Shown here: positions 74 through 24,877 of the stretch, piece by piece | Numbering within the stretch: position 1 is the stretch's first letter | Layout of the letters: every line of letters starts with the position of its first letter | Source: Sulfolobus acidocaldarius DSM 639 | GTDB lineage: Archaea; Thermoproteota; Thermoprotei_A; Sulfolobales; Sulfolobaceae | Assembly: GCF_000012285.1 (NCBI RefSeq) | Contig: NC_007181.1 | Location: 1,740,001-1,772,000 of the forward strand | DNA: 32,000 nt | Direction of reading: 5' to 3' | Program-made: the position numbers and the translations under genes | Notes under the pieces: generated by a model | Seen by the model: only the letters and a program-made list of their open reading frames with translations | The model's database searches: none | What the model was told of the DNA's origin: nothing

Positions 74-125
74 CGTTAAACAGTCTTTCGACTTAATTGA
101 TCTCCTCACCTCCCTGAAGGGGGAG
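74..125 (-). repeat. Copy F of the dispersed hairpin-GAGGAGG element
   Basis: Minus strand reads CTCCC-ccttca-GGGAG, then gtGAGGAGATCAATTAAGTCGAAAGACTGTTTAAC. This aligns with copies at 23460-23520 and 24811-24877. Confidence 0.55.
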
Positions 126-270
126 TCTATCTCCCTCATGTAAAGAATTAAGACTTCTTGTAGTTAGGTCTTTCATAGCATTGGTAATATAATTCTCGAC
201 TTCACACTTCACACGTCATAGTTAATGGTTTAACTAAATCCATGTTACGTCATTTCATAAGGCAACTACA

Positions 271-322
271 CTCTTCGCTTCTTAAGGTAAGAGGGGAGTC
301 AGATGCGGAATGGATGGTTGTT
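271..322 (+). repeat. Copy H of the dispersed hairpin-GAGGAGG element (decayed)
   Basis: cttcgc-ttcttaa-ggtaag, then AGGGGAGTCAGATGCGGAATGGATGGTTG. This resembles GAGGAGGTCAGATGAGTAGAATACTGTT of copy E. Confidence 0.4.
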
Positions 323-626
323 AAAGAAGGGTAATTTAGTACTCACATACGGATGTATGAACATTTCTTGACTTGGGAGAGAGTAGAGAGCATATTTACG
401 ACTTACGATGTTATTACCTGGAACAGTTATGAGTATATAGGATTTAAGTCTGACTTTAAGAGTAAGGCTGAGGTCAGGTATAATGTAGTATAGTGACCGA
501 TAGATTGATCAATATTCATTCTGAGGTAACACATAACTAATTACTTCCTCCTCTCATATGGACGTGTTCAGAGAGTTGTAGGAATAGTGTTAGATGGAGT
601 CAATGTTCTCAGCTCTCTCCAACACT

Positions 627-1877
627 CTAGCTTAGTAGCCACTTCCATAAGGGTATTGCCTTAATACCATTGATCTCGCCTTCATAGTCCCAAGTCAGTA
701 TGATCGCATTATCGACCTTAAGCTCAGACTTAGCCTCCACTATAGCCTCAACTTCTCTATCTTCTACCCTATCACCAGCATATGTTACTTGAATTAGAGT
801 AGTGGGACTGAAATTTCTAGCTATTACAAAGTCTATCTCCCTTTTCTTTTTCCAATAGAACACCTCTCTATACCCCCTCCTTAAGAGTTCTATAAACACT
901 GCGTTCTCCATGGCGTGGGATATCGAGAACTCATAGCCCAAGGCTGTAGGGTAACCTGTGTCTATTATGTACAGCTTTTTCGGATTAGCTTTCCTCTTTC
1001 TCTCGCTCTTCTCGAACTCCTCTACCAAGAACGAGAAGTAAGTCTCTTTAGCCCTCTCAAAGAGTTCTATTACCGTTTCCTTTCCTATCTTAATCCCTAA
1101 GCCCTTCATGTATCCATAGACCTTATTGATAGTTATTGGTCTAGCGTAGTTGGATATCAAATAACTGGCGAAAAGTGAGGCGATATCGGGCTTAACTATC
1201 GAGAAGTCTCTAACAATAACGGAGTCAAAGTAGGATTTCAATAGCCTTAATTTCTCACTGTTCTCGATCTCAAGAACAACTGCGGGATATGAACCGTGGT
1301 ATAAGTATTCCCTTAGAAGTGATAAGATTTTACCTCTTTGAACAGTGTATTCCATTAACTTGTTGTACTCAAAGCCTTTAAACCTCAAAAACTCCTTAAA
1401 GGACAGGGGGTAAATTTCATAGTTCACACTTCTCCCCCTCAGCTCTTCAGCAATCCTAAATGGAGTCAGGCTTGATGAGGAACCAGAGAGATAGACTCTG
1501 AAATTCGATCTCTTTCTAAACCAGCTCCCGTAATTTTCTATGTTTTGTATCTCGTCCAGGAAAACGTATTTTGGCTGTTTCCCAGTAAGCTCCACAAAGA
1601 TGGTCAGGATCTTGTCCAGATCATCTACCTTGGAGCCCTTTAGTCTGTAGTCTTCAAAGTCAACGTAAAGTATTTCGTCTTGAGATGCGAGACCACTCCT
1701 CATTAGTTCTTGTATTGTTTGGTATAGCAAGAATGTCTTGCCATTTCTTCTACCTCCTGTTACAGTTATTATGTAGTCTCTCTGTAACGGTAGTGAGATA
1801 TCTCTTTTTATAATGTTTGGTAATGAGGAGGTTAACCACTCTGCAATGTAACTCCTAAACCTCTCTTCTGGTACCAC
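627..1877 (-). CDS. AAA+ ATPase, COG1373/DUF4143-type
   Basis: 416-aa ORF with Walker A GGRRNGKT and Walker B-like VFLDEIQ. The C-terminal half is typical of the archaeal DUF4143 ATPase family. Confidence 0.8.
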   Translation of the reverse strand: MVPEERFRSYIAEWLTSSLPNIIKRDISLPLQRDYIITVTGGRRNGKTFLLYQTIQELMRSGLASQDEILYVDFEDYRLKGSKVDDLDKILTIFVELTGKQPKYVFLDEIQNIENYGSWFRKRSNFRVYLSGSSSSLTPFRIAEELRGRSVNYEIYPLSFKEFLRFKGFEYNKLMEYTVQRGKILSLLREYLYHGSYPAVVLEIENSEKLRLLKSYFDSVIVRDFSIVKPDIASLFASYLISNYARPITINKVYGYMKGLGIKIGKETVIELFERAKETYFSFLVEEFEKSERKRKANPKKLYIIDTGYPTALGYEFSISHAMENAVFIELLRRGYREVFYWKKKREIDFVIARNFSPTTLIQVTYAGDRVEDREVEAIVEAKSELKVDNAIILTWDYEGEINGIKAIPLWKWLLS

Positions 1878-2064
1878 AAAAGTTATAAGAACCTAGGCTA
1901 ATAAGTCTAATTCTGACCACTTTAACGTTAAGACTGGTCTGTTAGAGACCATGTTTTTATAATGATGTATATAAGAAAATTAATAAATAGTTTAAAACAA
2001 AAAAGAAGGTAAAAGTTATTTATTATAACAATTTATTTCCGATCTCGGAAATTATTCGGCTGGT

Positions 2065-2118
2065 GAGTCGATGAAGCTTCAATTCCAGGGAGGAGGAGAG
2101 CAGAACGATACTGTTAAC
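2065..2118 (+). repeat. Copy I of the dispersed element
   Basis: GAGTCGATGAAG...GGGAGGAGGAGAGCAGAACGATACTGTTAAC aligns with GAGTCGACAAGG...GAGGAGGAGGTCAGATGAGTAGAATACTGTTCAA at 23460-23520. Confidence 0.5.
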
Positions 2119-2373
2119 AGGTAGAGTTTTAACATAAGCGGTCTAGCTCTTAGGAAGGGAAGCTACTTGTCTCCTACTACCCTTATCTAAATACGATATA
2201 CATCGTTTAGGCATTGACCAGTATACGTATGTCGGTATTGTATATTAGGGTTCGTCTCTCAACGTGTAACACAACTGAAGTCTTTACGTAACGAATAAAA
2301 CTTTACCCTTTACGCGGGGGAGAGAGTTAGTGGATGCAAAAGTTATATAACAGTGGGTATATAGCCGAAATCT

Positions 2374-23459: not shown

Positions 23460-23520
23460 GAGTCGACAAGGATAACGCTTAGAGCGAGGAGGAGGTCAGA
23501 TGAGTAGAATACTGTTCAAT
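23460..23520 (+). repeat. Copy E of the dispersed element (5' hairpin arm lost)
   Basis: GAGTCGACAAGGATAACGCTTAGAGCGAGGAGGAGGTCAGATGAGTAGAATACTGTTCAAT. Confidence 0.55.
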
Positions 23521-23694
23521 TTAAGAACAATTTGATGGCTGATTAAGTTACTGATTAAGAAGAATAGTTGAAATTACATTTGGCAGGTCCTTTATAGCTT
23601 AAATCCTTTACCTTTAGATAAACTACAATTTCACCTAAAAATTTTGTGGATTACCTCTCACGTAATGTTATCATATACTTGTAAAAAATCAGAA

Positions 23695-24372
23695 TTACGT
23701 ATTTGCCTGATTAAAGTCCTTCCTAGGTTCCTCCTTTAAACCATTATAGAAGGATAATGTCTCTTCAATCCCTCTTTCCATTTCAAGTATGAAGTCTTTA
23801 ATAAATGGTTTAACCGGCTTCCCTTTAAAATTTTCAATACATATTACACCGGCAGGTAATGGAATTAAAGGTGAGTTACGCGTTTTCCTTATTCCTTCCC
23901 ACTTAGTATAGTCCTTCCATGAATTAATTATGCTGTTATGAAGCCAAAATACCTTAATTCCTATCCTCAATGGGTAAAACCCACTCGTCTCGTCAGTGTA
24001 AACATATTTTCTTAAAGCGTCTAATTCAACGTCAGTTATTATTCCAAAGCCCAATAGTCCAAGTTCCTTTGCAAATACGAAAGAGACCAGTACACTATCA
24101 TTTATATCACCCTCTTTATTATCAAAGTAAACTTGAACGTACTTGTTAACCACCCTAGTATTTACACCCTTATACCTCACACTCCAATACATATGTCCGA
24201 TTTCCCCTTGAAAGGAATAAGTTAAATGATCTGCAATTTGTTTTAATCTACCTGTGATATAACACACTGAAAACTTCTCATCCTTAATATATTTTAGAAA
24301 AAAATCTTTGGCGTCAACGGAAAAAGGGAAGAGCTTAGAAAATTTCTCCCTAGGAACTATCCACTTATCCAT
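23695..24372 (-). CDS. Orphan hypothetical protein (225 aa), no recognisable domain
   Basis: Clean ORF with TTTAATAATAAC at -34..-23 relative to the ATG (leaderless geometry). I recognised no motif. Confidence 0.6.
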   Translation of the reverse strand: MDKWIVPREKFSKLFPFSVDAKDFFLKYIKDEKFSVCYITGRLKQIADHLTYSFQGEIGHMYWSVRYKGVNTRVVNKYVQVYFDNKEGDINDSVLVSFVFAKELGLLGFGIITDVELDALRKYVYTDETSGFYPLRIGIKVFWLHNSIINSWKDYTKWEGIRKTRNSPLIPLPAGVICIENFKGKPVKPFIKDFILEMERGIEETLSFYNGLKEEPRKDFNQANT

Positions 24373-24504
24373 ATTTTATATTATTAAGTCATGTTATTAT
24401 TAAACTGACTTCCTCTTTTCCTTGAAATCGAGACTCATTTGATTAAGGTGGTATGGGGCAACAAACCTCAATGACTCGATGAACCTATGAAAAAGGTGAC
24501 AAAG

Positions 24505-24542
24505 CGAAAGACAAGCCTCGCCTTTTAAGGCGGGGTAAAGGT
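24505..24542 (+). repeat. Copy C of the dispersed hairpin element
   Basis: CGAAAGACAAGCCTCGCC-ttttaa-GGCGGGGtaaagg. Confidence 0.55.
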
Positions 24543-24547
24543 TTTTT
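24516..24547 (+). terminator. Hairpin plus T6 tract (terminator-like)
   Basis: A 7-bp stem, 24516-24522/24529-24535, is followed after 6 nt by TTTTTT (24542-24547). Confidence 0.3.
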
Positions 24548-24569
24548 AGTCTAAAAACACTATTGTCTT

Positions 24570-24877
24570 TTTGAGGGAGGGAAGCCCACAAGGGCATTTG
24601 GCGTACGTATATGTGTCCCTCCCTCTCAACACATATCCCCGAGTCCCAAGGAGGGTGGAGTGAGGGCTCCTACACCCAAGGGATATGGGTAAAGTGGGCT
24701 AAGACCAGCCCAGTGGTCTACCGCTGGACGAGTGGAGCGGGGTGGGTGCTTAATGCATCCACTAGCTATGAAGCGATGAGAGTGAAGGCGGTAAACCATA
24801 AACTAATGAACCGTCCTAAGGGAACCCTCGCCATTTATGGCGGGGAGGAGGTCAGCTAGAGAATAAGACTAGCTTTT
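24570..24877 (+). ncRNA. GC-rich structured island: candidate ncRNA or non-autonomous IS200/IS605 derivative
   Basis: 61 G+C in 24641-24740 by hand count, against AT-rich flanks. At least 8 perfect local helices. It ends in a hairpin plus TTTT. The only ORF is W/G-rich and implausible as coding. Strand was assigned from the T-tracts. Confidence 0.4.
24811..24877 (+). repeat. Copy B of the dispersed hairpin-GAGGAGG element (full-length type)
   Basis: CCTCGCC-atttat-GGCGGGG, then GAGGAGGTCAGCTAGAGAATAAGACTAGCTTTT. Confidence 0.55.

What the first reader, a model, noticed from the sequence alone, without database searches (positions are those of the whole stretch)
74..24877. Dispersed hairpin-GAGGAGG element: at least 8 copies, confined to the non-coding gaps
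A composite motif recurs at these positions:
- 74-125 (minus strand)
- 271-322
- 2065-2118
- 8791-8828
- 16741-16773
- 23460-23520
- 24505-24542
- 24811-24877
- possibly 2306-2340
The core is a 7-bp GC hairpin (CCTCGCC-aTTTAt-GGCGGGG, or the CCTCACC/GGTGAGG variant) followed by GAGGAGG. Five copies share a further ~25-nt tail, for example:
- GAGGAGGTCAGATGAGTAGAATACTGTTCAAT
- GAGGAGATCAATTAAGTCGAAAGACTGTTTAAC
- GAGGAGGTCAGCTAGAGAATAAGACTAGC
- GAGGAGGAGAGCAGAACGATACTGTTAAC
Two others share a distinct 5' arm (GACAAARCGAAAGRCAAGC). The short ORFs that follow the GGAGGT are not conserved (MSRILFNLRTI* vs MRNGWLL...), so conservation is at the DNA or RNA level. Copies look 5'-truncated relative to the one terminating the GC island. 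The hairpin architecture resembles the CCACTCACC/GGTGAGTGG stem in the tnpB 3' region. The family could be relics of IS200/IS605 right ends, a MITE, or a small RNA or terminator module.
Basis: seen in the sequence. Interest (0 to 1): 0.62.

Follow-up and report, generated by a model that had tools for sequence, protein, structure and literature searches.

The report
Transposon-end hairpin relics in Sulfolobus
The recurring "hairpin plus GAGGAGG" motif is the end structure of an IS200/IS605-type (tnpB) jumping gene, left in this Sulfolobus acidocaldarius genome as one 355-bp gene-less remnant and about 40 tiny 43-base single-hairpin units, a miniature form I could not find described.

Summary
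The motif is real, but the copy list is only partly right.

**Copy check.** A covariance model and shuffle tests confirm A, F, H, E and a decayed G. D is a probable fragment. B, C and I are unsupported. A strong copy at 23094-23156(-) was missed.

**Identity.** The hairpin CCTCGCC-loop-GGCGGGG followed by AGGAGGTCAG is the right end of an IS608/IS609-like element.
- The same module ends the intact tnpB at genome 406-407 kb.
- It flanks tnpA-tnpB elements in six other Sulfolobaceae genomes.
- It also forms the right end of Klebsiella IS609.

**What is in the window.** Window 24501-24855 is a 355-bp tnpB-derived MITE, a class reported in Acidianus in 2011. The other copies are 43-nt "solo" units: left-end flank, one hairpin, right-end tail.

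**Evidence of mobility.** Comparison with a sister species shows at least 12 precise filled/empty sites. Insertions sit directly 3' of TTAC, or TGAC for the MITE type, with no target duplication. The 4-nt guide beside each hairpin covaries with its cleavage site as in IS608.

**Distribution.** Solos occur in 36 of 47 Sulfolobaceae genomes and in two viruses. They are most abundant in genomes lacking the Y1 transposase, including this one.

**Reading.** They are non-autonomous transposon relics, not RNA or terminator modules.

The parts
97..139 (-). Copy A. Decayed 43-nt solo unit (ATGAGGGAGATAG-ACTCCCC..GGGAGGTG-AGGAGATCAA), inserted after TTAC at 140-143.
   Evidence: R1 E = 7.8e-5. A-F local alignment z = 5.6. 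Coordinates. Hairpin weakened.
7874..7911 (-). Possible strongly decayed TGAC-type solo unit (TGAC|AAAAAGAGGACGAGC...GAGGAAGTCAA).
   Evidence: R1 E = 0.027. Sequence. Marginal.
8786..8828 (+). Copy G. Decayed TGAC-type solo unit: left-end flank AAAACGAAAGGCAAG, broken hairpin, AGGAGGTAGG. Target TGAC at 8782-8785.
   Evidence: G-H z = 11.2 and G-E z = 5.1. R1 only E = 0.69.
15043..15100 (+). Possible decayed TTAC-type unit (TTTAC|AAAATGAGTTAAG...).
   Evidence: R1 E = 0.56. Sequence. Marginal.
16733..16784 (+). Copy F. Solo unit after TTAC (16729-16732). Hairpin at 16746-16768 carries a 3-nt duplication, and the tail carries a 6-nt insertion (AGGA-cgttga-AGCCAG).
   Evidence: R1 E = 1.5e-12. 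nhmmer E = 6e-13. DNA fold -8.3 kcal/mol, z = -3.7. Pattern match.
23105..23147 (-).
   Evidence: R1 E = 3.3e-9. Coordinates.
23484..23501 (+). Copy D. Right-end-tail-like fragment GCGAGGAGGAGGTCAGAT with no family hairpin. Probable decayed unit.
   Evidence: D-E z = 6.9. No R1 match. nhmmer E = 8.9. Only a 4-bp stem.
24497..24500 (+). TGAC target/cleavage tetranucleotide immediately 5' of the MITE left end.
   Evidence: Conserved in W, X and V, 10 of 11 sister-genome MITEs and tnpA locus L033. Empty-site proof for L040.
24501..24855 (+). 355-bp tnpB-derived MITE (element W): left end, omega-RNA/TnpB C-terminal relic, right end.
   Evidence: Aligns end to end with genome copies at 419.2-418.9 kb(-) and 1675.6-1676.0 kb, and with the 3' end of tnpB at 407 kb.
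24516..24535 (+). Copy H. Left-end hairpin CCTCGCC-TTTTAA-GGCGGGG, preceded by guide CAAG.
24611..24859 (+). 82-codon relic reading frame equal to the C-terminus of TnpB (the omega-RNA scaffold region).
   Evidence: BLASTP 66% identity over 68 aa to residues 330-397 of the 397-aa TnpB at genome 406031-407224, E = 1e-30.
24826..24855 (+). Copy E. Right-end hairpin CCTCGCC-ATTTAT-GGCGGGG (24826-24845) preceded by guide GAAC, plus the 10-nt tail AGGAGGTCAG ending at cleavage site TCAG.
   Evidence: R1 E = 4.7e-9..

Best explanation
**What it is.** The 'hairpin-GAGGAGG' motif is the subterminal hairpin and 3' cleavage tail of an IS608/IS609-like member of the IS200/IS605 transposon family. In Sulfolobales this family is carried by tnpA-tnpB and tnpB-only ('orfB') elements.

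**Two non-autonomous forms lie in the window.**
1. A 355-bp MITE at 24501-24855. It has a left-end hairpin, a relic of the tnpB 3' end (the omega-RNA scaffold) and a right-end hairpin.
2. 43-nt single-hairpin 'solo' units. Each has 13-15 nt of left-end flank ending in a 4-nt guide, one hairpin, and the 10-nt right-end tail AGGARGTCAG.

**How it works (shown versus inferred).**
- Shown: insertions sit directly 3' of TTAC, or TGAC for the MITE type, with no target duplication.
- Inferred from IS608 biochemistry: a Y1 (HUH) TnpA binds the hairpin in single-stranded DNA. It finds its cleavage sites by pairing them with the 4 nt just 5' of the hairpin foot.

**Current state in this genome.** It has no Y1 TnpA, so these copies are now immobile, decaying relics. 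They survive only where insertion is harmless, in intergenic gaps.

**Source of transposase (inferred).** TnpA was probably supplied in trans, from elements since lost or carried on viruses or plasmids.

**Open point.** It is unresolved whether the solo unit itself transposes or arises when a two-hairpin element collapses between its two identical hairpins.
For: **Same module at ends of real elements.**
- The intact 397-aa tnpB at genome 406031-407224 ends inside the same hairpin. The right end there reads ggggaac-CCTCACCCTTTAGGGCGGGG-AGGAGGTCAG.
- Six of six Y1 tnpA loci taken from other Sulfolobaceae genomes carry this right end about 1.7 kb downstream. L033 shows the full left end TGAC|AAAACGTGAGGCAAG-hairpin; L036 and L037 show a left-end hairpin at weaker E.
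- Klebsiella IS609 ends with GGGAAT-CCTCGCCCTTCAGGGCGGGG-AGGATGTCAA.

**Geometry matches IS608.** The cleavage site ends 10 nt 3' of the hairpin foot, 'AG' follows the foot, and every site has T at -4 and A at -2 (PMC3201880, PMC5934647).

**Guide and cleavage site covary.** AAAG pairs with TTAC, CAAG with TGAC and GAAC with TCAG. This parallels IS608 AAAG/TTAC and GAAT/TCAA.

**Mobility.**
- At least 12 of 22 sister-species (G039) solos have an exactly empty orthologous site here. The insert is 43 nt, immediately after TTAC, with no duplication.
- One 352-bp MITE is an exact insertion after TGAC.
- Two G039 solos sit at 267-bp and 624-bp deletions in an ATPase gene. The lost segments are bounded by TTAC on both sides.

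**Census.**
- About 40 copies in this genome, of which 39 of 42 are intergenic.
- Matches in 36 of 47 Sulfolobaceae genomes, with 0 to 108 copies each.
- Solos also occur in viruses YNP2 and SMV3.

**Structure.** Hairpin pairing is kept in 85% of cells against 45-59% in slid controls, with compensatory changes.

**Literature.** An orfB-derived MITE class, and insertion after TTAC, were reported for Acidianus hospitalis (PMC3119797).
Against: - This genome has no Y1 TnpA. The four genomes with most units (108, 95, 87 and 41 copies) also have none. The mobilising enzyme is therefore inferred, not observed.
- In solos the guide is AAAG (or CAAG), which fits the left site but not the right site TCAG. 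Canonical IS608-type cleavage at the solo's right side is unexplained.
- Orientation relative to replication direction, an IS200/IS605 hallmark, is inconclusive. Against remembered origin positions the score is 15 concordant to 15 discordant. This is my own tally, not a tool output.
Confidence: 0.9

Rival explanations
1. The 43-nt solo unit is itself the transposing entity. A Y1 transposase cuts on both sides of a single hairpin, much as bacterial RAYTs do with REPs, and moves the unit as it stands.
For: - Length is uniform at 43 nt and junctions are exact.
- Within G039 there are sub-lineages sharing 5'-flank variants: GATG x10, GACG x7, GAATG x3, with 92% mean pairwise identity.
- The exact-pattern search found no AAAG-type left end continuing into element interior in G039 or G024, and only one each in G000, G030 and G017. 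Those genomes hold 36-108 solos.
- G039's 11 MITEs are TGAC-type, not the TTAC-type of its solos.
- Solos occur alone in two viral genomes.
Against: - The solo's guide AAAG cannot pair with the right site TCAG by the IS608 rule. The rule needs GAAC, as in full right ends.
- The IS608 transpososome synapses two hairpins (PMC3201880).
- The pattern was exact-match and would miss diverged masters. Masters could also sit on unsequenced plasmids or viruses.
Confidence: 0.45
2. Solos are dead products. A two-hairpin element inserts, then recombination or polymerase slippage between its two near-identical, directly repeated 20-nt hairpins deletes the interior. What remains is the left-end flank, one hairpin and the right-end tail.
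For: - Solos exist for both left-end types (TTAC/AAAG and TGAC/CAAG): V at 404.7 kb, G, 415.7 kb and the two viral copies. A general collapse process would produce this.
- The model explains the guide mismatch at the solo's right side.
- The left-end and right-end hairpins of W are 18/20 identical direct repeats.
Against: - It requires dozens of independent insert-then-collapse events per genome.
- I found no site with a full element in one species and a solo in the other among the 22 solo sites and 3 MITE sites compared.
- Two-hairpin TTAC-type elements are nearly absent.
Confidence: 0.4
3. The units are host-functional modules that merely resemble transposon ends: a small RNA, a transcript-stabilising or terminating hairpin, a ribosome-binding module (GGAGG), or a protein-binding site.
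For: - The elements are GC-rich hairpins in AT-rich gaps.
- The family persists across 12 of 14 Sulfolobaceae genera.
- 19 of 42 copies lie in divergent promoter regions.
- Copy number does not track TnpA.
Against: - Units in tandem gaps show no orientation preference (7 against 8), and distances to downstream starts range from 48 to 459 nt.
- No T-run follows the hairpin.
- Presence or absence varies at orthologous sites between sister species, and copies in this genome have decayed to 73% mean identity.
- The conserved positions are exactly the transposase-relevant ones: TTAC, AAAG, hairpin and TCAG. The middle of the 5' flank varies between genera.
- No Rfam match.
Confidence: 0.05
4. The listed copies are a chance collection of purine-rich GGAGG-like strings next to unrelated small hairpins.
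For: True for part of the list. B, C and I get no model match at a meaningful E-value and no significant pairwise alignment. C and I do not fold better than shuffles.
Against: - 0 hairpin-pattern matches are expected and 3 distinct hairpins are found in the window.
- Model E-values reach 1e-12.
- There are about 40 genome copies.
Confidence: 0.02

Closest known systems
IS608 (Helicobacter pylori) and IS609 (Escherichia coli / Klebsiella), IS605 group of the IS200/IS605 family
   Same: - Subterminal hairpins in the same orientation at both ends, with no inverted repeats.
- Insertion 3' of a tetranucleotide (TTAC) without duplication.
- A 4-nt guide 5' of the hairpin foot that matches the cleavage site.
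- Right cleavage site ending 10 nt 3' of the foot, with 'AG' after the foot.
- The IS609 right-end hairpin has the same arms (CCTCGCCC/GGGCGGGG) and a near-identical tail (AGGATGTCAA) (PMC3201880, PMC5934647).
   Different: - The right site here is TCAG with guide GAAC, against TCAA with GAAT.
- The left site lies 13-15 nt from the hairpin foot, against 19 nt.
- A second target type, TGAC with guide CAAG, exists.
- This genome has no tnpA.
- Most copies are gene-less.
orfB-derived 'MITE-like' elements of Acidianus hospitalis W1 (You et al. 2011, PMC3119797) and haloarchaeal PATEs (palindrome-associated transposable elements)
   Same: Element W (355 bp) has both ends plus a short reading frame equal to the downstream end of OrfB/TnpB, exactly as described there. 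That paper also mentions unpublished copies in Sulfolobus genomes.
   Different: - I made no sequence comparison with the A. hospitalis copies, because their sequences were not at hand.
- That paper could offer no evidence of mobility. Here one exact filled/empty site is shown for a sister-genome MITE.
- The 43-nt solo form is not described there.
Bacterial REP elements and their RAYT (TnpA-REP) transposases
   Same: Short (about 40 nt) GC-rich single hairpins, extragenic, tens to about 100 copies, evolutionarily tied to IS200/IS605 ends.
   Different: - No RAYT or any Y1 transposase in the high-copy genomes.
- No GTAG/CGTC head.
- Units keep recognisable left-end and right-end flanks of a bona fide IS.
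- Distribution is patchy (0-108 copies) rather than stably inherited.
Sulfolobus MITEs SM1-SM4 and SMN1 (Redder et al. 2001; from memory)
   Same: Non-autonomous, short, multi-copy elements in Sulfolobales intergenic DNA.
   Different: As I recall, those have terminal inverted repeats and target duplications and derive from ISC1048/1058/1173/1217-type elements. The units here have neither feature. Direct sequence comparison was not possible.

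Membership tests
IS200/IS605 family ends (IS608/IS609-like) | Subterminal imperfect-palindrome hairpins at both ends in the same orientation; no terminal inverted repeats. 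| tested here: met
   W has its left-end hairpin at 24516-24535 and right-end hairpin at 24826-24845, both on the + strand. Pairing is conserved with compensatory changes.
IS200/IS605 family ends (IS608/IS609-like) | Insertion immediately 3' of a specific tetranucleotide, with no target-site duplication. | tested here: met
   Filled/empty comparisons between G039 and G000 give an exact 43-nt insert after TTAC. TTAC precedes 18 of 23 units. A 352-bp MITE sits after TGAC. TGAC precedes 10 of 11 G039 MITEs.
IS200/IS605 family ends (IS608/IS609-like) | A guide tetranucleotide 5' of the hairpin foot is complementary to the cleavage site. | tested here: inconclusive
   Met for left ends (AAAG/TTAC, CAAG/TGAC) and for full right ends (GAAC/TCAG; IS609 GAAT/TCAA). 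Not met for the right side of solo units, where AAAG faces TCAG. The pairing rule is inferred from these four pairs plus PMC5934647 and PMC3201880.
IS200/IS605 family ends (IS608/IS609-like) | Right cleavage site 10 nt 3' of the hairpin foot, and 'AG' directly after the foot. | tested here: met
   The tail AGGARGTCAG is 10 nt long in 20 of 23 units and in all full right ends. Compared with PMC3201880.
IS200/IS605 family ends (IS608/IS609-like) | Association with Y1 (HUH) TnpA and/or TnpB. | tested here: met
   A TnpB ends in the same right end in this genome. Y1 TnpA is absent here. All six TnpA loci examined in other Sulfolobaceae genomes carry this right end downstream; three also show a left-end hairpin match.
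IS200/IS605 family ends (IS608/IS609-like) | Orientation bias towards the lagging-strand template. | tested here: inconclusive
   Strand runs exist (one search list; runs test z of about -2.2, my arithmetic). They do not fit origin positions recalled from memory (about 0, 579 and 1197 kb): 15 concordant, 15 discordant.
tnpB-derived MITE / PATE | Gene-less element of a few hundred bp with both IS ends and the 3' (omega-RNA) part of tnpB, in several copies. | tested here: met
   W, X and Z measure 344-363 bp. The relic frame is 66% identical to the TnpB C-terminus. G039 has 11 copies.
REP / RAYT system | A cognate single-copy Y1 transposase (RAYT) in the same genome, typically flanked by REPs. 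| tested here: not met
   PF01797 gives no match in G000, G039, G030, G024 or G017. The control genomes do give matches.
REP / RAYT system | Conserved GTAG (or CGTC) head on the palindrome. | tested here: not met
   The consensus is AAAATGAGGAAAG-CCTCGCC..., with no GTAG or CGTC head.
Sulfolobus MITEs SM1-4 / SMN1 | Terminal inverted repeats and target-site duplication; sequence derived from ISC1048/1058/1173/1217. | tested here: not met
   No inverted termini (5' AAAATGA..., 3' ...GTCAG) and no duplication at 12 exact junctions. Sequence identity to SM1-4 is not testable with these tools.
Structured small RNA / intrinsic terminator | Match to a described RNA family; a fixed orientation and position relative to genes; a T-run after the stem. 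| tested here: not met
   No Rfam match. Tandem gaps hold 7 co-oriented against 8 opposed units, and distances vary. The stem is followed by AGGAAGTCAG.

The most novel reading that the evidence does not exclude
The 43-nt single-hairpin unit is itself a mobile element, the smallest IS200/IS605-type transposable unit. A Y1 transposase supplied in trans, for example from viruses or plasmids, would process it on both sides of one hairpin. That would make it an archaeal counterpart of bacterial REPs. It would spread across Sulfolobaceae, reach about 100 copies in genomes that encode no transposase, and cause TTAC-to-TTAC adjacent deletions that can destroy genes.
Probability: 0.4. Interest if true: 0.6.

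Novelty: new variant of a known kind. Interest (0 to 1): 0.45.

Why it matters
**Annotation.** This explains a conspicuous class of GC-rich intergenic islands in a model archaeon. Those islands are easily mistaken for structured RNAs. S. acidocaldarius is usually described as free of active mobile elements, yet it carries about 40 fossils of single-strand transposition.

**Mechanism.** The solo units pose a sharp, testable question for IS200/IS605 biology: can a Y1 transposase mobilise a substrate with one hairpin whose guide matches only the left cleavage site, or do two-hairpin elements collapse systematically? The natural covariation of guide and target (AAAG/TTAC, CAAG/TGAC, GAAC/TCAG, GAAT/TCAA) is an evolutionary confirmation of the base-pairing rule worked out for IS608. 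The near-identity of the right-end hairpin between Sulfolobus elements and enterobacterial IS609 shows very strong constraint on that module, or horizontal transfer of it.

**Practical use.** The TGAC and TTAC sites define the likely TAMs of the associated thermophilic TnpB nucleases.

Tried and rejected
- **RNA-seq evidence.** The held supplements of the S. acidocaldarius transcriptome atlas (PMC12817955) contained no coordinate tables I could use. Transcription of the units is therefore untested.
- **Rfam.** The gathering-threshold scan of the window found nothing, and there are no tRNAs.
  - An HMM built from A, C and D finds only those three places in the genome.
  - Flanks of 22 sister-genome solos and 14 MITEs share no tail.
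  - I therefore rejected the tail as part of the element. The weak A/C/D similarity (p of about 0.01 each, uncorrected) remains unexplained.
- **Ribosome-binding-site idea.** Rejected. There is no start codon at a fixed distance, and the GGAGG lies inside the 10-nt right-end tail.
- **Replication-strand bias.** Inconclusive. It rests on origin positions from memory; a literature search was not followed up.
- **Literature on the short unit.**
  - Exact-sequence and keyword searches found the 2011 Acidianus MITE paper but no description of the short unit.
  - The S. acidocaldarius genome paper is not held.
  - ISfinder cannot be queried from here.
- **Link to the window's other tnpB (12082-13335).** Rejected. 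The model finds no match at its ends.

Full report
**Setting**

The window is bases 1740001-1772000 of a single 2,225,959-bp contig with 36.7% G+C. Earlier notes of this scan name the organism as Sulfolobus acidocaldarius. I reuse that name but did not verify it independently.

I read all nine listed places and compared each, with 150-bp flanks, against the whole genome.
- Copies F, H and E belong to a genome-wide repeat.
- A, B, C, D, G and I gave no BLAST hit elsewhere.

A regular-expression scan and then an nhmmer profile defined the family. There are about 40 copies at E < 1e-3. The consensus is TTAC|AAAATGAGGAAAG-CCTCGCC-aTTTAt-GGCGGGG-AGGAAGTCAG.

I aligned 26 short copies (A1). The 8-bp stem is paired in 85% of cells, against 45-59% when the partner is slid. 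Compensatory changes occur at two pairs.

A covariance model (R1) run on the window without filters gave:

| Copy | Coordinates | E-value |
|---|---|---|
| F | 16724-16786 | 1.5e-12 |
| unlisted | 23094-23156(-) | 3.3e-9 |
| E | 24804-24866 | 4.7e-9 |
| A | 86-148(-) | 7.8e-5 |
| H hairpin | 24516-24535 | 0.002 |
| G | 8777-8838 | 0.69 |
| I | 2279-2341 | 3.2 |
| B, C, D | | no match |

Marginal matches also appear at 7863-7916(-), 15039-15100, 24394-24437(-) and 26105-26152.

Local alignments against shuffles add the following:
- G-H z = 11, so G carries the GACAAA-type left flank with a broken hairpin.
- D-E z = 6.9, so D carries the right-end tail only.
- A-F z = 5.6.
- B and I resemble nothing.
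- C reaches only p of about 0.01 against A and D.

The exact hairpin pattern occurs at three places in the window, against 0 expected.

The family and its core are real. Five listed copies are members, one is a probable fragment, three are not supported, and at least one good copy was missed.

**What the large copy is**

Window 24355-25027 aligns with three other genome regions. One of them is the 3' end of an intact 397-codon gene at 406031-407224. That gene has the TnpB zinc-ribbon/RuvC signature, and its stop codon lies in the loop of the hairpin.

The window copy (W, 24501-24855, 355 bp) consists of:
- a left end: TGAC|AAAGCGAAAGACAAG-hairpin-taaagg;
- a relic frame 66% identical to TnpB residues 330-397;
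- a right end: gggaac-hairpin-AGGAGGTCAG.

After TCAG the copies diverge completely.

This is the 'MITE-like' orfB derivative reported for Acidianus hospitalis in 2011. That paper also states that orfB elements insert after TTAC (PMC3119797).

**What the short copies are**

The short copies have 13 nt (TTAC type) or about 15 nt (TGAC type) of left-end flank, one hairpin, and the 10-nt right-end tail. The modal length is 43 nt. I call them solos.

**Link to autonomous elements**

This genome has no Y1 transposase (PF01797). Twenty of the 47 Sulfolobaceae genomes searched do.

In all six TnpA loci that I fetched, from six genomes, the same right end lies about 1.7 kb downstream of tnpA. L033 also shows the full left end, TGAC|AAAACGTGAGGCAAG-hairpin-taaag; L036 and L037 show a left-end hairpin match at weaker E.

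The right-end module is also found in:
- Sulfolobus viruses and plasmids, including SMV1, where it is annotated as an IS200/605 orfB element;
- haloarchaeal plasmids;
- enterobacterial IS609, whose end reads GGGAAT-CCTCGCCCTTCAGGGCGGGG-AGGATGTCAA.

**Mechanistic anatomy**

For IS608 the literature gives the following (PMC3201880; PMC5934647):
- left site TTAC with guide AAAG;
- right site TCAA with guide GAAT;
- the guide is the 4 nt 5' of the hairpin foot;
- the right site ends 10 nt 3' of the foot;
- the 'AG' after the foot makes base triples;
- T at -4 interacts with A at -2.

Here the tail is 10 nt, starts with AG, and all sites have T at -4 and A at -2.

The guide/site pairs are AAAG/TTAC (solos), CAAG/TGAC (MITE and tnpA-tnpB left ends), GAAC/TCAG (full right ends) and GAAT/TCAA (IS609). 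Guide position 1 covaries with site position 2, and guide position 4 covaries with site position 4. I infer that rule from these pairs.

The exception is the right side of solos. There the only guide available (AAAG or CAAG) does not fit TCAG.

**Mobility**

The sister species G039 is 84-95% identical in flanking DNA. It has 87 model matches. I examined 22 of its solos:
- At least 12 have an exactly empty site here. Examples are L014, L016, L019, L020, L025 and L029, and L015 and L024. The inserted block is AAAATGAYGAAAG-hairpin-AGGAAGTCAG, directly after TTAC, with no duplication.
- Three sites are occupied in both species (L023, and two in L030).
- The rest are unresolved.

A 352-bp G039 MITE is an exact insertion after TGAC relative to G000 position 1484928|1484929.

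At locus L018, two G039 solos replace 267 bp and 624 bp of an archaeal ATPase gene that is intact here (2179658-2180950). Both lost segments are bounded by TTAC on each side. That is the signature expected of transposase-made adjacent deletions.

**Distribution**

- R1 finds matches in 36 of 47 Sulfolobaceae genomes and 12 of 14 genera, with 0 to 108 copies each.
- The unit has the same architecture in other genera. The middle of the 5' flank varies, but TTAC, GAAAG, the hairpin and AGGARGTCAG are kept.
- Copy number does not follow TnpA. The genomes with 108, 95, 87, 41 and 36 copies have none.
- TGAC-type solos also sit in viruses YNP2 and SMV3.
- G039's best 22 solos are 92% identical on average and fall into 5'-flank sub-lineages. 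The 26 solos here are 73% identical (the G039 sample is biased to the best scores).
- The exact-pattern search found no AAAG-type left ends continuing into element interior in G039 and G024, and single copies in G000, G030 and G017.

**Context in this genome**

With a crude gene map (ORFs of 100 aa or more, 85% of the genome), 39 of 42 copies touch no gene. The gap types are 19 divergent, 8 convergent and 15 tandem. In tandem gaps, 7 units are co-oriented with the genes and 8 are opposed. Distances to the next start vary widely.

This argues against a terminator, leader or ribosome-binding role. It fits insertion followed by purifying selection against genic copies.

**Conclusion and limits**

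The motif is the end module of an IS608/IS609-like IS200/IS605 element. In this genome it survives as three ~350-bp MITEs, of which W lies in the window, and about 35 solos. All are now stranded without a transposase.

The MITE class is known. I could not find the solo form described, but ISfinder and much of the older literature are outside my reach.

Two models for solos remain open: self-mobile single-hairpin units, or in-situ collapse of two-hairpin elements.

Noticed in passing
window 24856-24873; L043 (G039:C1:1484422-1487612); G000 about 1545.5 kb: The DNA just after the right end of W (CTAGAGAATAAGAC) is 13/14 identical to the flank of a non-orthologous MITE in the sister genome (CTAGAGTATAAGAC). 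That flank is host DNA: it is present at the site lacking the MITE here as TGAC|CCAGAGTATAAGAC. The other 13 MITE flanks show no such similarity. The cause is unexplained; options are paralogous targets, a flank carried along, or guide-related homing.
   Followed up: partly
window 74-96(-), 2101-2118, 23502-23520: A, C and D share GA..ACTGTTnAA 13-16 nt after the GAGGAG string. An HMM built from them finds no further copy in the genome, and pairwise p is only about 0.01. A and D also share a variant 5' flank (TTAY|AYGAGGGAKRTAGACYC). This may be a small local sub-lineage or chance.
   Followed up: partly
L018 (G039:C1:2016187-2017612) against G000 2179585-2179851 and 2180174-2180797: In the sister species an archaeal ATPase gene is destroyed by two deletions (267 and 624 bp). 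Each has a solo at the junction, and the deleted segment has TTAC at both ends. This looks like transposase-mediated adjacent deletion.
   Followed up: yes
L040, L043, L047, L052-L059 (G039): All 11 sister-genome MITEs share a right end that lacks the 5' arm of the hairpin (GGAACCC-TTTAGGGCGGGG). They nevertheless sit at 11 different TGAC sites, and one of those sites is exactly empty here. Either a remodelled right end still works, or the arm was lost in a master copy that kept moving.
   Followed up: partly
L051 (Klebsiella pneumoniae plasmid MN956836.1, 222323-222358): The IS609 right-end hairpin arms are identical to the Sulfolobus ones, and the tail differs at 2 of 10 positions. That is striking conservation of a 30-nt non-coding module across domains. 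About 1,300 Klebsiella plasmids carry it.
   Followed up: partly
genome-wide (list): Solo orientation comes in runs along the chromosome: 10 '+' in a row between 857 and 1436 kb, 6 '-' between 1448 and 1678 kb, and 6 '-' between 1817 and 2151 kb. A runs test gives z of about -2.2. The switch points do not match the replication origins as I remember them.
   Followed up: partly
window 24394-24437(-): AAGGAAAAG is directly followed by AGGAAGTCAG. This looks like a unit whose hairpin has been deleted (R1 E = 0.099).
   Followed up: no
It is therefore itself a TGAC-type solo rather than a plain left end.
   Followed up: partly
window 22556-23086, 25335-25995, 26204-26810, 627-1877: The units sit among accessory genes: PaREP1, reading frames at 25335-25995 and 26204-26810 that look like two VapBC-type pairs (my reading of the translations, not searched), and an AAA_14/DUF4143 ATPase.
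   Followed up: no
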